From positions 1 through 41,868 of IMG/VR virus record IMGVR_UViG_2974481312_000001: a stretch of 41,868 nt of DNA; one strand, 5' to 3'. The DNA comes from a virus. Lineage: Duplodnaviria > Heunggongvirae > Uroviricota > Caudoviricetes. Both the position numbers and the translations under genes were made by a program. Within the stretch, counting starts at the first letter, position 1. Each line of letters starts with the position of its first letter. Of the stretch, positions 16,425 through 31,527 are shown in pieces. The notes beneath the pieces are model-generated. The model searched no databases and was not told where the DNA came from. It saw only the letters and a list, made by a program, of their open reading frames with translations.

Positions 16425-18758
16425 TCAATATCCTGGTTGGCCGCGCGTAGCGCGACGTGCCTTAGAAATTGCGCTGTTACTATCCTGTAGCGCAGAACTT
16501 ACGGTTTCACTGATTATAATACGTAATCGCCCTTCGTCGTCACGTTCTGTTGTCGCTGAATCAATTTTTCCGGTGGTGTTGTTCACAATGGTAACATTAT
16601 CTCCTCCGGATTTAGCGCCGCTCTCCCCCATAATCTGTCGCATCTGTTCCGCTGTGCGTACACGAGAGGCACTCGCGGGCATGATTACTTCCGGTTTACC
16701 GCGTTCAGCAATAGTGGACATTTGACCGGCGGCCAGGCTACCTCCCTGTTCACGCGCTGACCGTATTTTACCGATGTTAGCCAGACCAGCGGCGACAGCG
16801 GCAGCGGCAGCTACAGGAGCAAGGAACGGTCCCACGACAGGGATCGCGGCGGTAGACTTATACGCTTCAATAGCCGAGGTATAGGTAGCGATTGTTGCCT
16901 GCGCGATAGCAAAGGCTTTATATGCCGTTGATGCTTCCCCTAGCGCGGCCCCGATGTTACTAGCCATATTACCGAATGCGGCGCCTGTTGCCTTCGCTCG
17001 GTCTAATGCGTAAGTATCATTCATTGCGTTTAGGGTCTGCTGGTATGTTTCTTCCGCGATTAAACCCTGCGCATGAAAATCGTTAAGTTTTTGTAGCTTG
17101 ACCTCGTACTGCCGGTCTAATTCCGCAAATTCTCCTTCAGCAAGGGCCTGCATCTGAGCGACATACGCATCTGCGGAGAATTGCTTTTCCAGGCGCTCTT
17201 TCTCGCGTTTATCTAACTCAGCCTGGCGGGCCGTATCCGCCTCGAGCATAATCTGCGTCTTAGCGGTTTCGTATTGCTGGTCACTAAGGAGACGGTTGCT
17301 GTAGAACTCCTGTAGCTTAGTAAGTTGCTCTTCTTGGTTAGCTTGTATCTTCTGGAATACGTCGTCGTTAAGGTGGATTGACTGATAATAGAAATCCTCA
17401 GCGGCTTTCTTCTGACGTTCGAATGCGTCGACGGATTTCTTAGCAGCATTGTCCGCGGAATCGCCTACAGAACCGTTGTCTTTACCCGACACTTTAAACT
17501 TACCAAGACCCTCGGCCTTGGCCGCTTCTTTATCGATGTCGTAAGCCGCGCGCTTCAATGCGATAAGGTCTTCCTGAGCTTCTACCTGTTCACGGAAACT
17601 TTTACGTGTCAGGTCAGTCACAGCTCTTTGGGTATCCATAGCAAGCGCTAACTGGAAGTTAAGGTTCTTGGCCTCAGCTACCGACTCTCCCGGCGCCAAT
17701 GCGGCCTTTACAAGACGTCCTGCATCCTGAGCGCCTTTAACCATATCTTCAAAAAACCGCTCCATTGCCGTAAATTCCTGTGCAATGAAGTCCAGCGCAT
17801 CAGCCGCTGATTCGGCTATTGTTGACGCGGTCTCCTCACCACTTCCGGTAATGCTTTCACTAGTGTAAGTCCAGGCGGAGTTCAAAGCGTTTAACGCGTC
17901 TGCAACCGTCCCAAACGCCGCGTCGAATGAAGCCTCTATCGCACCCCCAACATCGGATGCCATGTCACCCCACATCTGCATCTCGGCTACGAACTCACCG
18001 GATGCGACCTGAGCGTTTATCTCCTGTATCAGGTCGTCAATATAACGTAAAGGTTCCGCCAGCGATCCTACATCCAGACCAGTAGCGAGAGTCATCTCTA
18101 ACTGGGACCATGAGTCCTCCGCACTAGCGATAGCCCCGTTCAGGGTATTAGCCTGGTCAGCCATCGCCCCGGCGAAGTTAACGTTGCCTATGTTGAGGAG
18201 ATATCGCTCAATATCGGCAGCGTTTTTCTTAACTACAGTAGTCGTCCCCTGGAAGGTAAATTCGATATCACTTTGGTTCTGCTTGGCTTTAATGCCGAAT
18301 TCTTTCAGACGTTCGAATTCAAAGGTGCTCGCATCCGCGACGGCCTCAATCATCTGGTTAAGGTCTTTACCCATAGCGGATGCAGTATTGCCGTAAGAGC
18401 GGAGCGCTTCTTCTGATGGAGTGAGGCCTAGAGCTACCAGTTTACGGAACCCTTCCACTGCTTGTTCAAGGCCGTAAGGTGTGTCACGGGCGAAGTCCTG
18501 TAAAATACTCAGGGCCTGTTTTGCGCCTTGAGTACTGCCTGTGAGCGTTTTCAGGCTAGCCGACATCTTATCCAGTTGCCGTTGCGACTCGACTAGTTCC
18601 TGCGCCGCCTTATAGGCCATAGCGGCTACAACGGCAGCCAGTCCGGTGACCGCGGCCCCCGCAACTTTTGCAGATTTAGAGAGGTTATCAAGACGGTCTG
18701 ATGTGGCCTTCGCGCCTTGTTCGGTTACCTTTACTACTAAGCTAGCTACATCAGCCAT
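16425..18758 (-). CDS. Tail tape measure protein
   Basis: About 780 aa, Ala/Gln/Glu-rich coiled-coil composition, located after the G/GT chaperone; track start is TTG at 18773, nearest ATG at 18758. Confidence 0.8.
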   Translation of the reverse strand: MADVASLVVKVTEQGAKATSDRLDNLSKSAKVAGAAVTGLAAVVAAMAYKAAQELVESQRQLDKMSASLKTLTGSTQGAKQALSILQDFARDTPYGLEQAVEGFRKLVALGLTPSEEALRSYGNTASAMGKDLNQMIEAVADASTFEFERLKEFGIKAKQNQSDIEFTFQGTTTVVKKNAADIERYLLNIGNVNFAGAMADQANTLNGAIASAEDSWSQLEMTLATGLDVGSLAEPLRYIDDLIQEINAQVASGEFVAEMQMWGDMASDVGGAIEASFDAAFGTVADALNALNSAWTYTSESITGSGEETASTIAESAADALDFIAQEFTAMERFFEDMVKGAQDAGRLVKAALAPGESVAEAKNLNFQLALAMDTQRAVTDLTRKSFREQVEAQEDLIALKRAAYDIDKEAAKAEGLGKFKVSGKDNGSVGDSADNAAKKSVDAFERQKKAAEDFYYQSIHLNDDVFQKIQANQEEQLTKLQEFYSNRLLSDQQYETAKTQIMLEADTARQAELDKREKERLEKQFSADAYVAQMQALAEGEFAELDRQYEVKLQKLNDFHAQGLIAEETYQQTLNAMNDTYALDRAKATGAAFGNMASNIGAALGEASTAYKAFAIAQATIATYTSAIEAYKSTAAIPVVGPFLAPVAAAAAVAAGLANIGKIRSAREQGGSLAAGQMSTIAERGKPEVIMPASASRVRTAEQMRQIMGESGAKSGGDNVTIVNNTTGKIDSATTERDDEGRLRIIISETVSSALQDSNSAISKARRATRGQPGY

Positions 18759-19110
18759 CGTTTCTACCCTCAAAAATGGCGTCTAAGCCCATGATAATTT
18801 CAGATTCAAACATCCCTATATTCTGACCTGAAATAGTGCTATACGCCACTAAATCTGACCAACTAAGTTGCTCTCTTGGGTATAGCTTTACGCCGTCGTC
18901 ATCAACGCGGCGGGTGAATTTAACATCACGATACTTCTCAAAAGTGGTGAGTAGTTCAGGGGGGCATTCAGGCCCGGCGTCCTGCGTTGTTTCTCCCGCG
19001 TCTTTTATTACCCCCATAGCGATAAGCGCGGCTTTGTGCCCATCGGCGATACTGTCAAACTTGCGCCTTTCGTGGCGGGTTATGAAGTTCCAACGGGCAA
19101 ACTGAAACAA
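18751..19110 (-). CDS. Tail assembly chaperone frameshift extension (gpT-like)
   Basis: ORF in the -1 frame relative to 19116..19532, open across the upstream stop; no convincing independent ATG (track start is TTG). Confidence 0.45.
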   Translation of the reverse strand: MFQFARWNFITRHERRKFDSIADGHKAALIAMGVIKDAGETTQDAGPECPPELLTTFEKYRDVKFTRRVDDDGVKLYPREQLSWSDLVAYSTISGQNIGMFESEIIMGLDAIFEGRNDG

Positions 19111-19115
19111 CGCGT

Positions 19116-19532
19116 CTACTTTTCCTGCAATTGACGCAACTGTTCGTGGTGGAATACGACTACATGTTCCGCCAGGCGCTTATATTGGGTGAGAAGAGTC
19201 TTAAGATTTTCCTTAGTGAACTCATCATCGAGACTCCAGCCATTCACCAATTCGAGAGCCAATTGTCGGTTTAGGTCTCCTGCCGCGTCTTCCATTTTTA
19301 AATTGTATTCTGAGAAGTCTTTTTGCTCTTCGCATTTATCCCGAAGCGGCTTTAATTTACCTACCGCCGCTCGGTACGCCAGGGTGAAGGCACGCATAGC
19401 TTTAACCGCGACATCGGCCTCCGGGGAGACAACGTTCAACCATTCTCCTGAATCTGTACCATCTTTTAAAGGGATCGGCATGCGCGCGCCTTTCTCGGCT
19501 TCGGCTTCGTAGTAAAAATCGCTAAGTTTCAT
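19116..19532 (-). CDS. Tail assembly chaperone (gpG-like)
   Basis: 138 aa acidic protein directly upstream of the tape measure gene; ends ..CAG GAA AAG TAG. Confidence 0.6.
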   Translation of the reverse strand: MKLSDFYYEAEAEKGARMPIPLKDGTDSGEWLNVVSPEADVAVKAMRAFTLAYRAAVGKLKPLRDKCEEQKDFSEYNLKMEDAAGDLNRQLALELVNGWSLDDEFTKENLKTLLTQYKRLAEHVVVFHHEQLRQLQEK

Positions 19533-19638
19533 AGTAATGCCCTTTGGTTAGTCGGTTACTGGTTGGTAGTTGCACCAGGCGGGAACCACCCGCTTTTCCG
19601 GTGCGACCGTAGACGCCAAATAAGAATAACAAAATAGC

Positions 19639-19667
19639 TTGCATAACCGTTAATAGTGTCCTATTAT
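19639..19667 (+). promoter_or_regulatory. Sigma70-like promoter TTGCAT-17-TATTAT with TAATAG-TGTC-CTATTAT element
   Basis: Upstream of the plus-strand island inside the minus-strand tail operon. Confidence 0.5.
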
Positions 19668-19701
19668 CTCTACGTCAACTAAACAATATGAGGTTAAGAA
19701 C

Positions 19702-19881
19702 ATGAGCGTTTTTATCGGTATTATCGCGTTTATCTATTTCATTCCGTTCCTGGTAGCCTTGCTACGTAATCATAAAGCGAAATTAGGAATATTCGTATGC
19801 AATCTTTTACTGGGGTGGATTCTTCTGCCGTGGGTTGGGGCTCTCATCTGGGCCTGTAACTCTAATGTTAATGGTAAATAA
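19702..19881 (+). CDS. Small membrane protein resembling superinfection-immunity (Imm-like) proteins
   Basis: 59 aa, GAGG RBS 8 nt upstream; IYFIPFLVALLRNHKAKLGIFVCNLLLGWILLPWVGALIWAC; below the track cut-off. Confidence 0.55.
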   Translation: MSVFIGIIAFIYFIPFLVALLRNHKAKLGIFVCNLLLGWILLPWVGALIWACNSNVNGK

Positions 19882-19932
19882 TCTGGCTTAATCAAAATTA
19901 CATTATTAGAATCAGGTTTGTCTTAAGCAATC

Positions 19933-19942
19933 GGGGGGGGGG
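19933..19942 (+). repeat. G10 homopolymer tract in the RBS region of the 19950 gene
   Basis: Ten consecutive G, ending 7 nt before ATG 19950. Confidence 0.9.
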
Positions 19943-19949
19943 AATAAGC

Positions 19950-21080
19950 ATGGTAACTCGTAAAATAACAGATGAACAGTTGCAGCAAGAGCTAAACGCT
20001 GGTCTCGGGCCGACCGAAATCGCAAAGAAGTACAACATGTCACGCCGTAATGTTCAGCTAAGGTCAGCTCGTCTGGCCAAGAAAGGTGTTGGTCACGGTC
20101 GCGACGTAAGCCATCTGGTGCCGGATGGGTATAAAATAAAGGGTACGTCGTCACTGGTGGATGAGTTCGGCAATACGAAACTTCAGTGGGTTAAGACTGA
20201 CGCCGACGCCGAGCGTCAGGTCGAGTTGATGCGAGCCGTAATAGATGGGATGAAGTCCGATATTACGCCAGTTTCTTCGGTCCCTCGGCCTAAAAAGCGA
20301 CTAAACGAAAAGTTGCTAAATCTTTACACGATTTCTGACTTCCATTTAGGTATGTTGGCCTGGGCGGATGAGAGTGGCGACGACTGGGATATGAAGATTG
20401 CAGAAGACCTGTTCTCGAGATGGTTCGACGCGGCGTTTCAGAAGGCGCCTGATGCCGGTGTGGGTGTTATTAACCTATTAGGGGACTTTGCGCATTTTGA
20501 CAGCCTTGATGCCGTTACGCCTGCCAGTGGCCATGTACTGGACGCGGACACGCGTTACCAGAAACTGGTGCGCTACATGATTCGTATGGTCAGGCGCGTG
20601 GTTAATATGGCGCTTGTTAAGCATAAAAATGTTCATCTCCTAATTGTGCAAGGAAACCATGACGAGTCAGGCATGATTTGGTTGGCTGAAATGTTTAACA
20701 CTCTTTACGATAATGAACCTCGTGTTTTTGTAGATACATCAGCTGATGTCTACAAGATGGTCCAACACGGTAAGACGACCCTTTTCTTTCACCATGGGCA
20801 TAAGGCGAGATTCGATGCTATCGAACCAGTTATGATCGCCAAGTTCCGTAAGGCGTTCGGAGAGAGCGTTTACAGTTACGCCCATGTGGGCCACCTTCAC
20901 CATCAGAAGATTGTGGAAAGCCGTAACATGATTGTTGAACAACACCGCACTCTCGCGGCGAAAGATGCTTACGCATCACGTGGTGGATGGATGTCAGGCC
21001 GCAGCGCGAATGTTATTACTTACAGTGCCGAATACGGCGAAGTCGCGCGTTTAACTATTTCACCGGAGATGCTGGGATGA
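19950..21080 (+). CDS. Calcineurin-like metallophosphoesterase with N-terminal HTH domain
   Basis: Motifs ISDFHLG, LGDFAHFD, QGNHDE, FFHHGH, VGHLHH; N-terminal HTH-like segment LGPTEIAKKYNMSRRNVQLRSARL. Confidence 0.8.
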   Translation: MVTRKITDEQLQQELNAGLGPTEIAKKYNMSRRNVQLRSARLAKKGVGHGRDVSHLVPDGYKIKGTSSLVDEFGNTKLQWVKTDADAERQVELMRAVIDGMKSDITPVSSVPRPKKRLNEKLLNLYTISDFHLGMLAWADESGDDWDMKIAEDLFSRWFDAAFQKAPDAGVGVINLLGDFAHFDSLDAVTPASGHVLDADTRYQKLVRYMIRMVRRVVNMALVKHKNVHLLIVQGNHDESGMIWLAEMFNTLYDNEPRVFVDTSADVYKMVQHGKTTLFFHHGHKARFDAIEPVMIAKFRKAFGESVYSYAHVGHLHHQKIVESRNMIVEQHRTLAAKDAYASRGGWMSGRSANVITYSAEYGEVARLTISPEMLG

Positions 21081-21307
21081 CTAACAAATACAATCGCACA
21101 ATGACAAATACTGACGGAGATAGCATTACCTGTGATGTGTACGACGTTCTGAGGGCATTTGATATCCGCGACCCGGCACTACAGCATGCGTTGAAGAAAC
21201 TGTTGTGTATGGGCCTGCGGGGGCACAAGGACACAGGAACCGACTTAGCAGAAGCAATTGAAAGTCTGGAGAAGTTACGGAAATACCGTAGTAATATTGA
21301 TGAGTGA
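21077..21307 (+). CDS. Hypothetical protein (76 aa)
   Basis: ATG overlapping the stop of the previous gene (ATGA); followed by a strong terminator. Confidence 0.5.
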   Translation: MTNKYNRTMTNTDGDSITCDVYDVLRAFDIRDPALQHALKKLLCMGLRGHKDTGTDLAEAIESLEKLRKYRSNIDE

Positions 21308-21310
21308 GAA

Positions 21311-21339
21311 AAAGGCCCCTTTCGGGGCCTTTTTTTTTA
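21311..21339 (+). terminator. Rho-independent terminator
   Basis: Hairpin AGGCCCC-TTTC-GGGGCCT followed by T9. Confidence 0.85.
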
Positions 21340-21420
21340 TCGTCACGATAAAGAATCTGATTTGAGCGATAAGAATGTTCGAAGTTAAATATATCTACGC
21401 CAACAAGAGGAGATGAAACC

Positions 21421-22092
21421 ATGAACGAATTAATGAATGTTAGTGAAGCACAAACAATGTCCAGCCGTGAGATTGCGGAACTGACGGGGAAAGAACACGA
21501 CAACGTACGACGCGATATATTAAAAATGGCACAGGAACTTTCCCTCAATTTTGAGGAAAAGGTTTTGCCTTCAAACGGTGGCAGACCAAGTAAGGTATTT
21601 CTCTTAGACAAAGAAAATACATTAATCCTGGTTTCAGGGTACAGCATCAAAATGCGCGCTGCCATCATCCGCCGTTGGCAGGAACTGGAGTCACAAGCGA
21701 GCAAACCATCCTTACCGGTGCCCAAGACAATGGGGGAGGCTTTAAGGTTGGCTGCGGACTTGTGGGAGGAGAAAGAACGCCTTGCGCTTGAGAACAAGGA
21801 AATGGCGCCAAAAGCTGATGTCTACGACCGCATCATCGACAGAAATAACTTGTACAACGCGACGCAGGTTGCCCAGAAGTTCGGCCAATCTGCCGTGTGG
21901 ATGAATAAACAACTTGAACAATTTGGCGTATACAATCGCTCCGTAAAACGCGGTCGTGTCTTCCAGCAATGGTTCATCGATAAGGGTTACGGCATTATGC
22001 GTGAAACAGAAACCGGGCATTCACAGGCCATGTTCTTTGCAGAAGGTGAGATGTGGATTATTGGTAAGTTAACAGAAGAAGGTTTGATTTAA
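21421..22092 (+). CDS. Phage antirepressor (Rha-like N-terminal domain plus KilA-C/ANT C-terminal domain)
   Basis: N-terminal MSSREIAELTGKEHDNVRRDI; C-terminal DVYDRIIDRNNLYNATQVAQKFG..VYNR; AAGAGGAG RBS. Confidence 0.75.
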   Translation: MNELMNVSEAQTMSSREIAELTGKEHDNVRRDILKMAQELSLNFEEKVLPSNGGRPSKVFLLDKENTLILVSGYSIKMRAAIIRRWQELESQASKPSLPVPKTMGEALRLAADLWEEKERLALENKEMAPKADVYDRIIDRNNLYNATQVAQKFGQSAVWMNKQLEQFGVYNRSVKRGRVFQQWFIDKGYGIMRETETGHSQAMFFAEGEMWIIGKLTEEGLI

Positions 22093-22096
22093 AACT

Positions 22097-22120
22097 AAGG
22101 CCCCTTTCGGGGCCTTTTTC
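22097..22120 (+). terminator. Rho-independent terminator, probably bidirectional
   Basis: Hairpin AAGGCCCC-TTTC-GGGGCCTT followed by T5; abuts the stop of the minus-strand gene 22121..23290. Confidence 0.75.
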
Positions 22121-23290
22121 TTAGGCGTACTTAATGCGCTGTATAACAATTGAAGACTGGAACTGGTTGCCGGTTGCCTGCCCCTCAAGAGAAAGGGTAA
22201 TAGACTCAGGGCCGCCGATTTCCGGAGTTGCGGACGTCAGTGAAGCACGTTTTAGTGTAAAGCTCATTGCACCATCCGGGCCATCAAGAACCGAAGATAC
22301 CTCCATTTCTGTTTCATCCAGGAATTTATTTAACAGCGTCATGTCGTACAGCTTACCCGCCAGCGAGAAGGTGTTAGCCGCGCGGCCACGTTCGACAAAT
22401 GCCACGCTGTTATTTCCCAACTCGAACTGTGCAGATGCCCCGTTGTCGTTAGTAATGGTGAACGTGTCAATAAGTTTAAGCGGCGCGGCTCCGTCATAAG
22501 CAGATACATCAACCGATGCAAACGGACGGGCTCTAAAATTGGTCGTGAAATCTGAACCGCTCGGCGGTGCTTGTAAGATTTCCTGATTCAAGCCGATGAA
22601 CGGGAAAGAACCGGTGACCATTGCGTTAACGGCTTGTTCGATGGTGAACCCGGTAAATTCAACACCACGAGTTATGATGTACGAATCAGGATTTCCGCAT
22701 TTACCTTTCAACCATGTCAGGATTGAATAGGTTTTACACAAGTTACCGGTTTCAAGTTTATCTGCGATACGCAAATCGGCTTGGGCGTCTGCCTGGGCGG
22801 TTAGGGTGTGCTGGATGCCCGCTCCGGTTATAGCTGTAGCTGTGACAGCCGTGACTATGAACGCTTTGTCGTTATTTCCGGATAAACCGTCGAACTGGAC
22901 AAGGTCGCCAACTTCAACACCGTCTGTTTCAAAACTACCGTTTGTGCGTGTGAAAGTTTTCGCCACCGGGTCTACGGTAACGCTGATTCCCGATTTAGTG
23001 GAACCCGCTACCCAGGAACTGGTCATTGCACCGGCTAACAGCTCGTCCTGGCTTGTCGCGCTTAGTTCGATAGCGTATTCACCAGTTACCTGGCGGTTAC
23101 CGGTGCGGATAGATGATGTTTCGCGGCTGCCGTCCAGCTCGTTAGAGATGAGGGCGTCGCGGGTTACGGCGGGAATACCCCCAGTGTTGCGCAGTGGTTG
23201 CCATACCGGGTTAGCGGGTGTTACCCCCGGCGTCGTCTCAAGAACGTAAAACTGCGCGGTCATCGCGCCCTTATATGGTTGTAACGCCAT
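22121..23290 (-). CDS. Major tail protein (putative)
   Basis: 389 aa ORF after the connector genes and upstream of the tail chaperone; assigned by position only. Confidence 0.45.
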   Translation of the reverse strand: MALQPYKGAMTAQFYVLETTPGVTPANPVWQPLRNTGGIPAVTRDALISNELDGSRETSSIRTGNRQVTGEYAIELSATSQDELLAGAMTSSWVAGSTKSGISVTVDPVAKTFTRTNGSFETDGVEVGDLVQFDGLSGNNDKAFIVTAVTATAITGAGIQHTLTAQADAQADLRIADKLETGNLCKTYSILTWLKGKCGNPDSYIITRGVEFTGFTIEQAVNAMVTGSFPFIGLNQEILQAPPSGSDFTTNFRARPFASVDVSAYDGAAPLKLIDTFTITNDNGASAQFELGNNSVAFVERGRAANTFSLAGKLYDMTLLNKFLDETEMEVSSVLDGPDGAMSFTLKRASLTSATPEIGGPESITLSLEGQATGNQFQSSIVIQRIKYA

Positions 23291-23709
23291 TATCTAATCC
23301 TCGCTGTAAATGCTATGAAATTAATTGAGAGAGGCCTCTTCGCCCATCCATTCTCAACAATAAGAGGACCGAGGCTTACTGATTGTACCTCAGCACAGAT
23401 TTCGTTACGACTAAAACAGTTACCGGCGGCGAAGGCGGCGTTTAGCTTATCAGCTAATCGGTTAATAGGAGCGCTACCCAAGGCCGACCCGACGTTAATG
23501 TCTACCTGATAAACACCCGCCCGTTGTTCAGTCCAGAACAAGTCAGCTTGTTCGGTATCTGACAACAGCATATAACTCGCAAGATATGGGGTATCTGTAG
23601 ACGTAGGTGCGTCTATGTTCTCTAACGCAACCATGATGTCGTTGTCGGTGCCAAATGCCGCCAGTGCCGTGTCGAATGCTTTCGTTAAGTCCTCAAAATA
23701 TGTTGCCAT
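23290..23709 (-). CDS. Head-tail joining / tail terminator-like protein
   Basis: 139 aa ORF in the connector cluster. Confidence 0.4.
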   Translation of the reverse strand: MATYFEDLTKAFDTALAAFGTDNDIMVALENIDAPTSTDTPYLASYMLLSDTEQADLFWTEQRAGVYQVDINVGSALGSAPINRLADKLNAAFAAGNCFSRNEICAEVQSVSLGPLIVENGWAKRPLSINFIAFTARIR

Positions 23710-30846: not shown

Positions 30847-31497
30847 ATGAATGTGCAGACTTTAGAATTTCCGTATGGCGAGGTGGAATTTACACGTGAT
30901 GAGTATATAGATGCCTCAACATTAACCATCCAGATGAACAGATGGAGGTTCGATAACGGACTCCAACCAAGAAATCTTGCGCAGATACTAAAAACCGATG
31001 ACTGCAAAAACTTTATGCGTGTGTGTGAGGAGGAGACAGGTATTGTTCCGTTAAAAACATCAAGAGGGAGGAACGGGAAGACGTGGTTGTGCCTGCACCT
31101 GGCCGTGTACATTGCAGAACAGTATAGTGCGTATTTTCACTTCCTGGTTATAGACCGATTTATTACGCAACGGCAGGTAGAGCTGCGTAACATTGGTGCG
31201 GTAAGCTTCGTGGAGCTTAATGCCGCCGTTAGTAGGATGATTGAACGTACAGAAGGGCGGATAGGCCATAGTGGACATTTCATACAGGTAGCGAAAGCAA
31301 TCAAGGAGTCTATAGATATTCGTGAAGTCACAGGTTTTGATACATGGGACTCCCAGGACGCAAAAACTAATCAATTGCGGAGCGAGATTCAAAAGTCTAT
31401 GGTGACGTTGTTGGATATGGAAGCAGTCAACTCGTGGGATGAGCTTAAAGAGACAATACCGCGTGTTGTTCGCAAATGCGCGGCAAATATATGTTAA
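30847..31497 (+). CDS. KilA-N domain-like protein
   Basis: Segment GKTWLCLHLAVYIAEQYSAYFHFLVIDRF resembles the KilA-N/APSES core; plus-strand gene inside the minus-strand head operon. Confidence 0.5.
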   Translation: MNVQTLEFPYGEVEFTRDEYIDASTLTIQMNRWRFDNGLQPRNLAQILKTDDCKNFMRVCEEETGIVPLKTSRGRNGKTWLCLHLAVYIAEQYSAYFHFLVIDRFITQRQVELRNIGAVSFVELNAAVSRMIERTEGRIGHSGHFIQVAKAIKESIDIREVTGFDTWDSQDAKTNQLRSEIQKSMVTLLDMEAVNSWDELKETIPRVVRKCAANIC

Positions 31498-31503
31498 AAC
31501 TAC

Positions 31504-31527
31504 GGCCCCGTTATGGGGCCTTTTGTT
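31504..31527 (+). terminator. Rho-independent terminator
   Basis: Hairpin GGCCCC-GTTAT-GGGGCC followed by TTTTGTT. Confidence 0.7.

What the first reader, a model, noticed from the sequence alone, without database searches (positions are those of the whole stretch)
19639..22120. Plus-strand accessory island inserted between the major tail and tail chaperone genes
A self-contained rightward unit (own promoter at 19639, terminators at 21311 and 22097) interrupts an otherwise uniformly leftward structural operon. It encodes an Imm-like small membrane protein, an HTH-metallophosphoesterase, a 76-aa protein and a Rha/ANT antirepressor. Position and content fit a moron-type cargo island for superinfection exclusion, anti-defence or host manipulation, which is unexpected in a phage lacking an integrase.
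Basis: partly seen in the sequence, partly recalled or inferred. Interest (0 to 1): 0.7.

Follow-up and report, generated by a model that had tools for sequence, protein, structure and literature searches.

The report
Opposite-strand early-gene cassette in tail operon
The rightward four-gene unit between the tail-tube and tail-chaperone genes is real and has its own transcription signals. It is a standard, already annotated feature of Jersey-like Salmonella phages: its central enzyme gene is a conserved core gene, and only the genes at its two ends are swappable cargo.

Summary
The window is the complete genome of the virulent Salmonella phage f18SE (Jerseyvirus). Four plus-strand genes lie between the major tail protein and the tail assembly chaperone genes: an Imm-like membrane protein, an HTH-metallophosphoesterase (HTH-MPE), a 76-aa protein (p76) and a Rha/ANT protein. 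They have a conserved sigma-70-type promoter and two strong bidirectional terminators.

- All 46 Jerseyvirus/Kagunavirus-type junctions I examined carry the HTH-MPE at this spot.
- It is more conserved than the tail tube (86-89% versus 68-73% amino-acid identity between genera; dN/dS 0.015-0.06).
- It belongs to a large phage family: 2,038 of 50,697 phage records. Elsewhere it sits among replication genes, in E. coli prophages directly upstream of a DnaB helicase.
- Only the edges vary. The first gene is always a small envelope protein. The Rha/ANT gene is a promoter-gene-terminator cassette, absent from some close relatives.
- More distant relatives have the junction empty, hold one small envelope-protein gene, or carry other cargo. 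The site is therefore an old cargo slot.

The enzyme's function is unknown. Its fold is a generic metallophosphoesterase, slightly closest to SbcD/Mre11/PolD-DP1 nucleases. Nothing here is a new kind of system. Interest is low to moderate.

The parts
18751..19532 (-). Left flank: tail assembly chaperone genes (G-like 19116-19532; T-like part 18751-19110), the first genes of the leftward TAC-tape measure-tail tip block
   Evidence: PF08748 E 3e-8 and PF23812 E 1e-18. The K1ind1 homologues are annotated as a joined frameshift pair.
19570..19616 (.). Highly conserved non-coding block containing a hairpin (GCGGG-AACCA-CCCGC inside a longer stem, followed by TTTTCC on the + strand). It lies between the chaperone start codon and the island promoter. 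Role unexplained.
   Evidence: Nearly invariant between Jerseyvirus and Kagunavirus loci. Folds at -20.1 kcal/mol, z -2.6. No Rfam family matches.
19639..19667 (+). Island promoter: -35 TTGCAT (19639-19644), 17-nt spacer, -10 TATTAT (19662-19667)
   Evidence: Sequence. CTTGC ... TAyTAT at fixed spacing is conserved in 46 sequences (45 related loci plus the window) from two genera, whatever gene follows. Not detected by the strict consensus scan. Activity is inferred.
19650..19678 (-). Candidate leftward promoter for the chaperone/tape-measure block, overlapping the island promoter: -35 TTGACG (19678-19673), 17 nt, -10 TATTAA (19655-19650)
   Evidence: Read from the sequence. The PVP-SE2 GenBank record annotates a minus-strand promoter at the equivalent place. 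Only weakly conserved in Kagunavirus. Inferred.
19702..19881 (+). Slot 1: a 59-aa protein with two hydrophobic segments, of the T4 Imm (superinfection immunity) family
   Evidence: PF14373 E 2.3e-15, 56.7 bits against a cut-off of 27.9. phrog_1039 E 3e-23. About 50% identical to imm of T4-like phages. Replaced by a signal-peptide protein in STP03-type relatives.
19933..19942 (+). G10 homopolymer in the ribosome-binding region of the HTH-MPE gene
   Evidence: The 99.9%-identical phage f2SE has G8. Other Jerseyviruses have CAGGAAA or CGGGAAA here. It could be a real length-variable tract or a sequencing artefact.
19950..21080 (+). Core gene: the 376-aa HTH-metallophosphoesterase. N-terminal three-helix DNA-binding domain at residues 8-43, a beta-hairpin and helix at 61-103, and the MPE domain at 119-376.
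21077..21307 (+). p76: a 76-aa conserved protein of unknown function, overlapping the MPE stop codon (ATGA), which suggests translational coupling
   Evidence: phrog_2452 E 3e-36. No Pfam hit even at E 10. Found in 764 phage records, 100% identical in many Jerseyviruses. dN/dS 0.04-0.07.
21309..21338 (.). Terminator 1 (bidirectional): AAAAAGGCCCC-TTTC-GGGGCCTTTTT followed by a T run
   Evidence: Sequence. -24.6 kcal/mol, z -6.4, with 0 of 200 shuffles as stable. Annotated as a terminator on both strands in PVP-SE2.
21339..21349 (.). Palindrome ATCGTCACGAT just upstream of the Rha/ANT promoter. Possible operator.
   Evidence: Conserved as ATCGTSACGAT in all Rha/ANT-carrying loci aligned. Function is inferred.
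21362..21390 (+). Rha/ANT cassette promoter: -35 TTGAGC (TTGAAC in relatives), 17 nt, -10 TTAAAT
   Evidence: Both hexamers are conserved in 8 of the 9 related loci aligned, across Rha/ANT alleles of 65-99% identity, while the spacer varies. In L017 (57% allele) the spacer and -10 region are deleted.
21421..22092 (+). Slot 2: the 223-aa Rha (N-terminal) / ANT-KilAC (C-terminal) protein, annotated 'Roi' or 'anti-repressor' in relatives
   Evidence: PF09669 E 1.6e-16 and PF03374 E 1.8e-10. phrog_63 E 1e-60. Absent from STP03-type Jerseyviruses and most Kagunaviruses.
22097..22121 (.). Terminator 2 (bidirectional), with the same 23-nt hairpin sequence as terminator 1. It abuts the stop codon of the major tail protein gene.
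   Evidence: Rha/ANT-less relatives have a single hairpin between p76 and the major tail protein gene.
22121..23290 (-). Right flank: the major tail (tube) protein gene, last gene of the leftward head-to-tube block
   Evidence: PF18906 E 1.6e-39.

Best explanation
The region is a conserved early or middle transcription unit. The host sigma-70 RNA polymerase probably reads it, and it sits backwards in an old cargo slot at the tube|chaperone junction of the late tail operon of a virulent Jerseyvirus.

**Anatomy (shown)**
- Order of elements: promoter, Imm, HTH-MPE, p76 (its start codon overlaps the MPE stop), bidirectional terminator, second promoter, Rha/ANT, second identical bidirectional terminator.

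**How it works (inferred)**
1. The two hairpins also end the leftward head-to-tube transcript. The chaperone/tape-measure/tail-tip genes are then restarted from the divergent promoter region at 19640-19680. The unit therefore splits the late operon in two.
2. Imm inserts in the inner membrane and excludes superinfecting phage DNA, as T4 Imm does.
3. HTH-MPE is the fixed core of the unit. It is a DNA-binding two-metal phosphodiesterase that most likely cuts or trims nucleic-acid ends during phage DNA replication or recombination, possibly with p76 as a partner.
4. Rha/ANT is a true moron-like add-on (promoter, gene, terminator) acting as a DNA-binding regulator.

So the island is a displaced piece of the early DNA-metabolism programme with two swappable accessory slots. 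It is not a recently acquired cargo island.
For: **Identity and anatomy**
- The window is phage f18SE: 41,868 bp, 99.9% identical to f2SE and fSE4S.
- ORFs and domains are confirmed.
- The promoter hexamers are conserved at fixed spacing across 46 sequences (45 related loci plus the window) from two genera. The Rha/ANT promoter is conserved in 8 of the 9 related loci aligned, across alleles of 65-99% identity.
- Both hairpins are stable, and the PVP-SE2 record annotates promoters and terminators at the same places.

**The core is fixed**
- 46 of 46 Jerseyvirus/Kagunavirus-type junctions carry the MPE on the opposite strand.
- MPE identity between genera is 86-89%, against 68-73% for the tail tube.
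- dN/dS is 0.015-0.06, and MPE GC and GC3 match the genome.

**The edges vary**
- Slot 1 is Imm, a signal-peptide protein, or nothing.
- Downstream of the MPE lies p76, with or without an HNH endonuclease and with or without Rha/ANT, or a HAD-type 3'-phosphatase plus a P-loop kinase in Kagunavirus.
- Rha/ANT-less relatives keep a single hairpin.

**A role in DNA metabolism**
- The PHROG category is DNA, RNA and nucleotide metabolism.
- All catalytic motifs are invariant.
- In Drexlerviridae the gene follows helicase, VRR-NUC and Dam genes.
- In five E. coli prophage loci it lies 19 bp upstream of a DnaB-family helicase in the early-right operon.
- Homing HNH endonucleases sit next to it in several lineages.

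**Separate timing**
- In a Kagunavirus RNA-seq time course, the Imm gene peaks with the DNA polymerase and methylase genes, not with the neighbouring tail genes (PMC12645636).
Against: - No transcript or activity data exist for f18SE, so both promoters are inferred from sequence. The first -35 hexamer matches only 3 of 6, and the consensus scan found neither promoter.
- No solved structure is detectable by sequence.
- The model is only moderate (pLDDT 76).
- There is no Rad50/SbcC-like partner in the annotation of the near-identical f2SE.
- The gene's context outside the prophages is heterogeneous: near lysis genes in Dhillonvirus and Vibrio phages.
- Serratia phage Tsm2, a member of the same subfamily, has no MPE at all. 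The gene is therefore dispensable for the basic life cycle.
- The Kagunavirus time course is coarse, and its authors call the Imm gene 'late'.
Confidence: 0.6

Rival explanations
1. The whole operon, including HTH-MPE, is a counter-defence or host-takeover unit. On this view the enzyme is made early to degrade host DNA, as the mycobacteriophage A10ZJ24 gp48 metallophosphoesterase does. Alternatively it destroys nucleotide immune signals, or heals nucleic-acid ends cut by host defence nucleases.
For: - The promoter is early-type.
- A phage MPE expressed early has been shown to break host DNA and silence defence genes (PMC12287305).
- The top Foldseek hit is the cyclic-nucleotide phosphodiesterase Rv0805.
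- In Kagunavirus the MPE is followed by a HAD-type polynucleotide 3'-phosphatase and a P-loop kinase, which together form an end-healing set.
- Tsm2 lacks the gene, so it is dispensable in at least one member of the subfamily.
- It shares an operon with a superinfection-immunity gene.
Against:
- No anti-defence or defence profile matches (PADLOC).
- Very strong purifying selection and near-universal presence across many phage families are more typical of a housekeeping function than of fast-evolving counter-defence genes.
- The position next to a DnaB helicase in prophages points to replication.
Confidence: 0.25
2. One reading: a recently acquired, wholly accessory moron-type island dropped between the V-like and G-like tail genes.
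For: - It has its own promoters and terminators.
- Island GC is 46.5% against 49.8% for the genome, in the lowest 2.7% of same-size windows.
- Empty junctions exist in more distant relatives.
- Imm and Rha/ANT are variably present.
Against: - The core is present in all 46 Jerseyvirus/Kagunavirus-type junctions and is more conserved than the tail tube.
- The low GC comes from Imm (40.6%), p76, Rha/ANT and the intergenic DNA, not from the MPE (49.3%; GC3 0.525 against 0.50-0.53 in the flanks).
- The regulatory DNA is itself conserved between genera.
Confidence: 0.1
3. HTH-MPE is a lambda-PPase-like serine/threonine protein phosphatase, as some GenBank records annotate it, that reprogrammes host proteins.
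For: It has the calcineurin-like motifs. Several records carry the annotation 'putative serine/threonine protein phosphatase'.
Against: - An N-terminal HTH fits a nucleic-acid substrate.
- The PHROG and most records call it an exonuclease or phosphoesterase.
Confidence: 0.04

Closest known systems
Phage morons (promoter-gene-terminator units inserted between late-operon genes; concept from HK97/HK022 comparisons, cited from my own knowledge)
   Same: The Rha/ANT gene has its own conserved sigma-70-like promoter and its own terminator. It is present or absent among otherwise collinear relatives, with boundaries at the hairpins. Slot 1 is likewise swappable. The site lies between two tail genes.
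   Different: The unit is on the opposite strand, in a virulent phage, so there is no prophage expression. Its largest gene (HTH-MPE, with p76) is fixed and core-like, not optional.
T4 Imm (superinfection immunity membrane protein), Pfam PF14373
   Same: The HMM match is above the curated cut-off. The protein is about 50% identical to imm of T4-like phages and is small with two hydrophobic segments.
   Different: It is 59 aa and sits in a siphovirus tail operon. Exclusion activity has not been tested.
Superinfection-exclusion genes embedded in siphovirus tail gene clusters (T1/phi80 cor, HK97 gp15; cited from my own knowledge)
   Same: A small envelope-targeted protein gene sits inside the tail gene cluster. 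Across Guernseyvirinae the first gene of this slot is usually a two-TM, single-TM or signal-peptide protein.
   Different: No sequence similarity was tested or claimed. Here the gene is on the opposite strand and shares its transcript with an enzyme gene.
Mre11/SbcD and PolD DP1 nucleases (metallophosphoesterase fold)
   Different: Identity is only 14-16%. By sequence the hits are not significant (E 0.6-0.8). No Rad50/SbcC partner is annotated. The N-terminal HTH is not a feature of those families. Generic phosphodiesterases score equally well.
Mycobacteriophage A10ZJ24 gp48 metallophosphoesterase (PMC12287305)
   Same: It is a phage MPE with all five motifs, expressed early. It has phosphodiesterase activity and acts on DNA.
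   Different: Homology was not tested. That paper does not report an HTH domain. Its role (host DNA damage that silences defence genes) is not shown for this family.
P22 Rha / HK022 and Stx-phage Roi / P22 Ant-type KilAC proteins
   Same: The Phage_pRha and ANT domains are both above their cut-offs. The protein is about 31% identical to Roi of Stx phages. Relatives are annotated Roi or anti-repressor.
   Different: The host phage is virulent and has no repressor to antagonise. Its target is unknown.
T4 Pnkp-type end-healing enzymes
   Same: In Kagunavirus the same slot carries a HAD PNKP-type 3'-phosphatase and a P-loop kinase directly after the MPE.
   Different: These genes are absent from this window. 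p76 is unrelated to them.

Membership tests
Moron (autonomous promoter-gene-terminator insertion in a late operon) | Own promoter upstream of the gene | tested here: met
   Sigma-70-like hexamers at 19639-19667 and 21362-21390 are conserved at fixed spacing across genera. Activity itself was not measured.
Moron (autonomous promoter-gene-terminator insertion in a late operon) | Own factor-independent terminator downstream | tested here: met
   Hairpins at 21309-21338 and 22097-22121, at -24.6 and -15.8/-18.7 kcal/mol.
Moron (autonomous promoter-gene-terminator insertion in a late operon) | Present in some and absent from other otherwise collinear close relatives | tested here: inconclusive
   Met for Rha/ANT and for the Imm slot. 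Not met for HTH-MPE and p76, which are in all 46 Jerseyvirus/Kagunavirus-type junctions. Met only at subfamily depth, where empty or other-cargo junctions exist.
Moron (autonomous promoter-gene-terminator insertion in a late operon) | Nucleotide composition different from the neighbours | tested here: inconclusive
   Imm 40.6%, p76 45.9% and Rha/ANT 46.4% GC, against 49.8% for the genome. MPE is 49.3%, and GC3 is like the flanks.
Moron (autonomous promoter-gene-terminator insertion in a late operon) | Expressed from the repressed prophage | not testable with these tools
   The phage is a virulent Jerseyvirus. No integrase or repressor is annotated in the near-identical f2SE.
Imm_superinfect (PF14373, T4 Imm) | Profile match above the curated threshold | tested here: met
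   56.7 bits against a cut-off of 27.9, E 2.3e-15.
Imm_superinfect (PF14373, T4 Imm) | Blocks DNA entry of superinfecting phage | not testable with these tools
   This needs plating assays on cells expressing the gene.
Calcineurin-like metallophosphoesterase superfamily | Five metal-binding motifs: DxH, GD, GNH(D/E), H, GHxH | tested here: met
   D130, H132, G178, D179, N236, H237, H282, G314 and H317 are invariant in 40 diverse homologues.
Calcineurin-like metallophosphoesterase superfamily | Pfam profile above the gathering score | tested here: inconclusive
   PF00149 scores 21.4 bits against a cut-off of 21.5. Only 9 of 40 family members match at E<=1e-3.
Calcineurin-like metallophosphoesterase superfamily | Metallophosphoesterase fold | tested here: met
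Mre11/SbcD DNA repair nucleases (the source of the 'DNA repair exonuclease' label) | Significant sequence or specific structural similarity to Mre11/SbcD rather than to other MPEs | tested here: not met
Mre11/SbcD DNA repair nucleases (the source of the 'DNA repair exonuclease' label) | Rad50/SbcC ATPase partner encoded alongside | tested here: not met
   No such gene lies in the island or in the annotation of the 99.9%-identical f2SE genome. No dedicated profile search of every window ORF was run.
Rha/ANT regulators | Phage_pRha N-terminal domain plus KilAC/ANT C-terminal domain | tested here: met
   PF09669 scores 61.1 bits (cut-off 29.9) and PF03374 scores 41.5 bits (cut-off 25.3).
Known anti-phage defence systems (PADLOC) | Any of the four proteins matches a defence-system profile | tested here: not met
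   No hits at E<=0.01.

The most novel reading that the evidence does not exclude
The most novel reading not excluded is this. HTH-MPE, perhaps together with p76, is an uncharacterised and very widespread phage nucleic-acid enzyme. It occurs in about 4% of sequenced phage genomes and forms more than 1,100 clusters at 50% identity. It has no solved relative and no dedicated Pfam model. Its real job may be something not yet described. One possibility is a sequence-targeted nuclease or end-processing factor that works with the replicative helicase. Another is an early counter-defence enzyme that destroys host DNA or nucleotide signals. In that case the Jerseyvirus unit would be a compact early host-takeover operon lodged inside the tail genes.
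Probability: 0.25. Interest if true: 0.55.

Novelty: already known. Interest (0 to 1): 0.3.

Why it matters
For the scan, this is mostly a calibration case. A feature that looks like a foreign island in one genome turns out to be a fixed, annotated trait of two phage genera.

Three points are useful beyond that.
1. The tube|chaperone junction of Guernseyvirinae is a long-lived slot for opposite-strand cargo. The first gene there usually encodes a small envelope protein. That gives a ready list of candidate superinfection-exclusion proteins to test in phages used for Salmonella and E. coli biocontrol.
2. The slot is also a recombination boundary. The tail-tube and chaperone/tape-measure modules on either side reassort independently between genera.
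3. HTH-MPE is one of the most conserved genes of these therapeutic phages. It is shared with T1-like and other virulent siphoviruses, yet nothing is known about what it does. It is an easy and worthwhile target for a knockout and for biochemistry.

Tried and rejected
- **p76 as a remnant of the Kagunavirus P-loop 'ATP-binding' protein.** A PHROG match to an 'ATPase' family suggested this, but BLASTP found no similarity. p76 is also unrelated to the small ORF after the HK578 MPE.
- **p76 fused to a phosphodiesterase.** The Alteromonas phage R7M protein annotated 'phosphodiesterase' does carry a p76-like N-terminus (55% identity over 49 residues). It has no Pfam domain, so it says nothing about a link to the MPE.
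- **p76 domain assignment.** Pfam gives nothing even at E 10.
- **Rfam.** Only sub-threshold hits on the terminators.
- **PADLOC.** No hits.
- **NCBIfam.** Only a sub-threshold Rha hit.
- **Sequence searches of PDB.** The single protein and two profiles gave nothing significant.
- **Consensus promoter scan.** It found neither promoter, because of its hexamer rules. It also missed terminator 1, because the A/T arms are absorbed into the stem.
- **A functional Rha/ANT-MPE gene pair.** Two E. coli prophage loci have a Rha/ANT gene (39% identical in L095, the one compared) directly upstream of the MPE, and a third has Bro-N/ANT. Two other prophage loci have a different gene there. The closest non-Jersey Rha/ANT (63%, Klebsiella Jedunavirus) has no MPE neighbour. 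I treat this as unproven.
- **Covariation in the conserved hairpin block.** The sequence is too conserved to show compensatory changes.
- **The Kagunavirus RNA-seq paper.** It gives only a coarse three-class timing and does not mention the MPE gene.

Full report
**What the window is.** The 4.6 kb around the finding is 99.9% identical to Salmonella phages f2SE and fSE4S. The window length, 41,868 bp, is exactly that of phage f18SE (PMC4599075). f2SE is classified as Jerseyvirus f18SE, subfamily Guernseyvirinae. The window is therefore a complete genome of a virulent Jersey-like siphovirus. The annotation of the near-identical f2SE lists no integrase or repressor.

**Checking the observation.**
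- The four plus-strand ORFs are at 19702-19881, 19950-21080, 21077-21307 and 21421-22092. They lie between the minus-strand major tail protein gene (22121-23290) and the tail assembly chaperone genes (19116-19532 and 18751-19110).
- Pfam confirms Imm_superinfect for the first ORF, Phage_pRha plus ANT for the fourth, a borderline Metallophos hit for the second, and nothing for the third.
- PHROGs places the second ORF full-length in phrog_704 'DNA repair exonuclease' (E 1e-168) and the third in phrog_2452, of unknown function.
- The promoter is TTGCAT (19639-19644), 17 nt, TATTAT (19662-19667).
- The two terminators share the identical 23-nt sequence AAGGCCCCTTTCGGGGCCTTTTT and fold strongly. 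The phage uses the same GGCCCC...GGGGCC hairpin type at three other module boundaries.
- One detail of the description is wrong. A plus-strand amidase gene at 30847-31497 also interrupts the leftward structural arm.

**Is it an island? Presence in relatives.** I fetched 80 IMG/VR loci using a major-tail-protein alignment and scored them by tblastn. Of 62 complete tube|chaperone junctions:
- 46 carry the metallophosphoesterase gene on the opposite strand. These are all the Jerseyvirus-type and Kagunavirus-type loci.
- 16 more distant loci (tail tube 58-79% identical) do not. Five of these are empty (108-181 bp). Ten hold one small opposite-strand ORF. One holds 3 kb of other genes.

Of the ten small ORFs, nine are predicted membrane or secreted proteins. 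One of them is Imm-like.

Hand-checked GenBank records agree with this census.
- Kagunavirus K1ind1 has Imm, MPE, a HAD PNKP-type 3'-phosphatase and a P-loop kinase at the junction.
- Jerseyvirus STP03 has a 109-aa signal-peptide protein, MPE and p76, with no Rha/ANT.
- Jerseyvirus Ent3 has Imm, a second MPE allele (61% identical), an HNH endonuclease, p76 and Ant.
- Cornellvirus VSiP keeps two other opposite-strand genes at this junction. It carries its MPE (83%) as an opposite-strand unit in the head module instead.
- Serratia phage Tsm2 has a single signal-peptide protein gene at the junction and no MPE anywhere in the genome.

The junction is thus an old slot for backward-facing cargo. The MPE unit is fixed in two genera.

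**Conservation and composition.**
- Between Jerseyvirus and Kagunavirus the MPE is 86-89% identical in protein. The tail tube is 68-73% identical and the tail terminator about 80%.
- dN/dS for the MPE is 0.015-0.06. Its dN between genera (about 0.09) is well below that of the tube protein (about 0.24).
- The island's GC content (46.5% against 49.8%) is in the lowest 2.7% of same-size windows. The deficit comes from Imm (40.6%), p76, Rha/ANT and the spacers. The MPE is 49.3%, with GC3 like the flanks.
- In the GenBank phage collection, the MPE is found in at least as many Salmonella phage records (371) as the tail tube protein (358). This Rha/ANT and this Imm (at >=80% identity) occur in about 260 records each.

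**Transcription signals.**
- An alignment of the chaperone-to-slot-1 spacer from 46 sequences (45 related loci plus the window) shows CTTGC and TAyTAT invariant at a 17-nt spacing. The spacer and the downstream gene differ. That is a good phylogenetic footprint of a real sigma-70 promoter.
- A candidate leftward promoter, TTGACG-17-TATTAA, overlaps it. The PVP-SE2 record annotates a minus-strand promoter at the equivalent place.
- Upstream of the Rha/ANT gene, TTGA(A/G)C-17-TTAAAT is conserved in 8 of the 9 related loci aligned, across alleles of 65-99% identity. In the 57% allele (L017) the spacer and -10 region are deleted. The promoter is preceded by a conserved palindrome, ATCGTSACGAT.
- Relatives without Rha/ANT have one hairpin between p76 and the tube gene. 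Rha/ANT is therefore a cassette bounded by two copies of the terminator. This is the only part with full moron anatomy.
- In a Kagunavirus RNA-seq time course, the Imm gene groups with the DNA polymerase and methylase genes, not with the adjacent tail genes (PMC12645636). This is weak but independent support for separate control.
- I infer that the two bidirectional hairpins also end the head-to-tube late transcript, and that the chaperone/tape-measure block restarts from the divergent region.

**What the core enzyme is.**
- The family is large. tblastn finds it in 2,038 phage records, 1,960 of them full-length. An exhaustive search finds 1,137 clusters (at 50% identity) at E<=1e-30.
- Members occur in Guernseyvirinae, Dhillonvirus, Drexlerviridae, and Rhizobium, Vibrio and Campylobacter phages.
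- All five metallophosphoesterase motifs are invariant in diverse members. Member N-termini match assorted HTH families.
- No solved structure is detectable by sequence.
- The 'DNA repair exonuclease' label is therefore plausible but unproven.
- Context gives a lead. In Drexlerviridae the gene follows helicase, VRR-NUC and Dam genes. In five E. coli prophage loci it lies 19 bp upstream of a DnaB-family helicase in the early-right operon. Elsewhere it sits near lysis genes.
- HNH homing endonucleases are repeatedly found beside it. I read this as fitting a highly conserved gene of the kind such elements often target.
- I take a DNA-bound phosphodiesterase acting in replication or recombination as the most likely role.
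- A counter-defence role remains a serious rival. Its model is the mycobacteriophage gp48 MPE, which damages host DNA (PMC12287305).

**Verdict.**
- The feature is real and its anatomy is as described.
- It is not a recent or surprising acquisition. It is a genus-wide, publicly annotated unit. Its centre is a core gene and its two ends are accessory slots.
- Novelty: already known. Interest: about 0.3, resting mainly on the uncharacterised but very widespread HTH-MPE family and on the envelope-protein cargo slot.

Noticed in passing
window 30847-31497 (+), hairpin at 31504-31520: A second opposite-strand gene interrupts the leftward structural arm. It is a 216-aa amidase (phrog_6095, E 2e-128) between the portal and head-morphogenesis genes, followed by a GGCCCCGTTATGGGGCC hairpin.
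   Followed up: partly
window 10409, 21314, 22099, 29144, 31504: A family of GGCCCC-N4-5-GGGGCC hairpins marks module boundaries throughout the genome. The two in the island are identical over 23 nt. Their loop is inverted (TTTC versus GAAA) in some relatives.
   Followed up: partly
window 19933-19942: A G10 homopolymer lies in the ribosome-binding region of the HTH-MPE gene. The 99.9%-identical phage f2SE has G8, and other Jerseyviruses have CAGGAAA or CGGGAAA. It is either a length-variable tract affecting translation or a homopolymer sequencing error.
   Followed up: partly
window 19570-19616: A non-coding block of about 45 nt between the chaperone start and the island promoter is almost invariant between Jerseyvirus and Kagunavirus. 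It folds into a two-part hairpin followed by TTTTCC on the + strand (-20.1 kcal/mol, z -2.6). No Rfam family matches. Its role is unexplained; it could be a terminator/insulator, an mRNA 5' stem or a protein-binding site.
   Followed up: partly
window 16425-19532 versus 22121-23709; loci L014, L017, L023, L026: The chaperone and tape-measure alleles reassort independently of the tail-tube allele. Some Kagunavirus loci have a chaperone 93% identical to the window's while the tube is 73% identical. Some Jerseyvirus loci have a 45% chaperone with a 92% tube. The island sits at a recombination boundary.
   Followed up: partly
loci L006, L009, L011, L014, L016, L025, L028: Two HTH-MPE alleles about 61% identical to each other circulate within Jerseyvirus, and both occur in Kagunavirus-type loci. 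This indicates allele exchange at a fixed position.
   Followed up: no
loci L006 (4171-4671), L009, L011, L025; L100 (5184-5693): HNH homing endonuclease genes are inserted between the MPE and p76 in many Jerseyviruses. One also sits directly after the MPE homologue in a Vibrio phage.
   Followed up: no
loci L093-L098 (E. coli prophages): HTH-MPE homologues (44% identical in L095, the one compared) lie 19 bp upstream of a DnaB-family helicase in a lambdoid early-right operon. The slot just before them holds a Rha/ANT gene in two loci (39% identical to the window's in L095), a Bro-N/ANT gene in one, and an unrelated gene in two. Whether ANT and MPE are functionally linked is open.
   Followed up: partly
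loci L019, L037, L062, L092 (14486-14848), L102 (26623-26949), L004 (2679-3008): The first gene of the junction slot in other Guernseyvirinae encodes one of several unrelated small envelope proteins. These include a signal-peptide family with a Cys a few residues after the predicted signal sequence and a 66-87-aa single-TM family. They are candidate alternative superinfection-exclusion proteins.
   Followed up: partly
locus L092 (VSiP) 4995-6268: In Cornellvirus the HTH-MPE (83% identical), with a 47-aa downstream ORF, forms an opposite-strand unit in the head module instead of the tail junction. The enzyme unit has therefore moved between backward-facing slots within the subfamily.
   Followed up: partly
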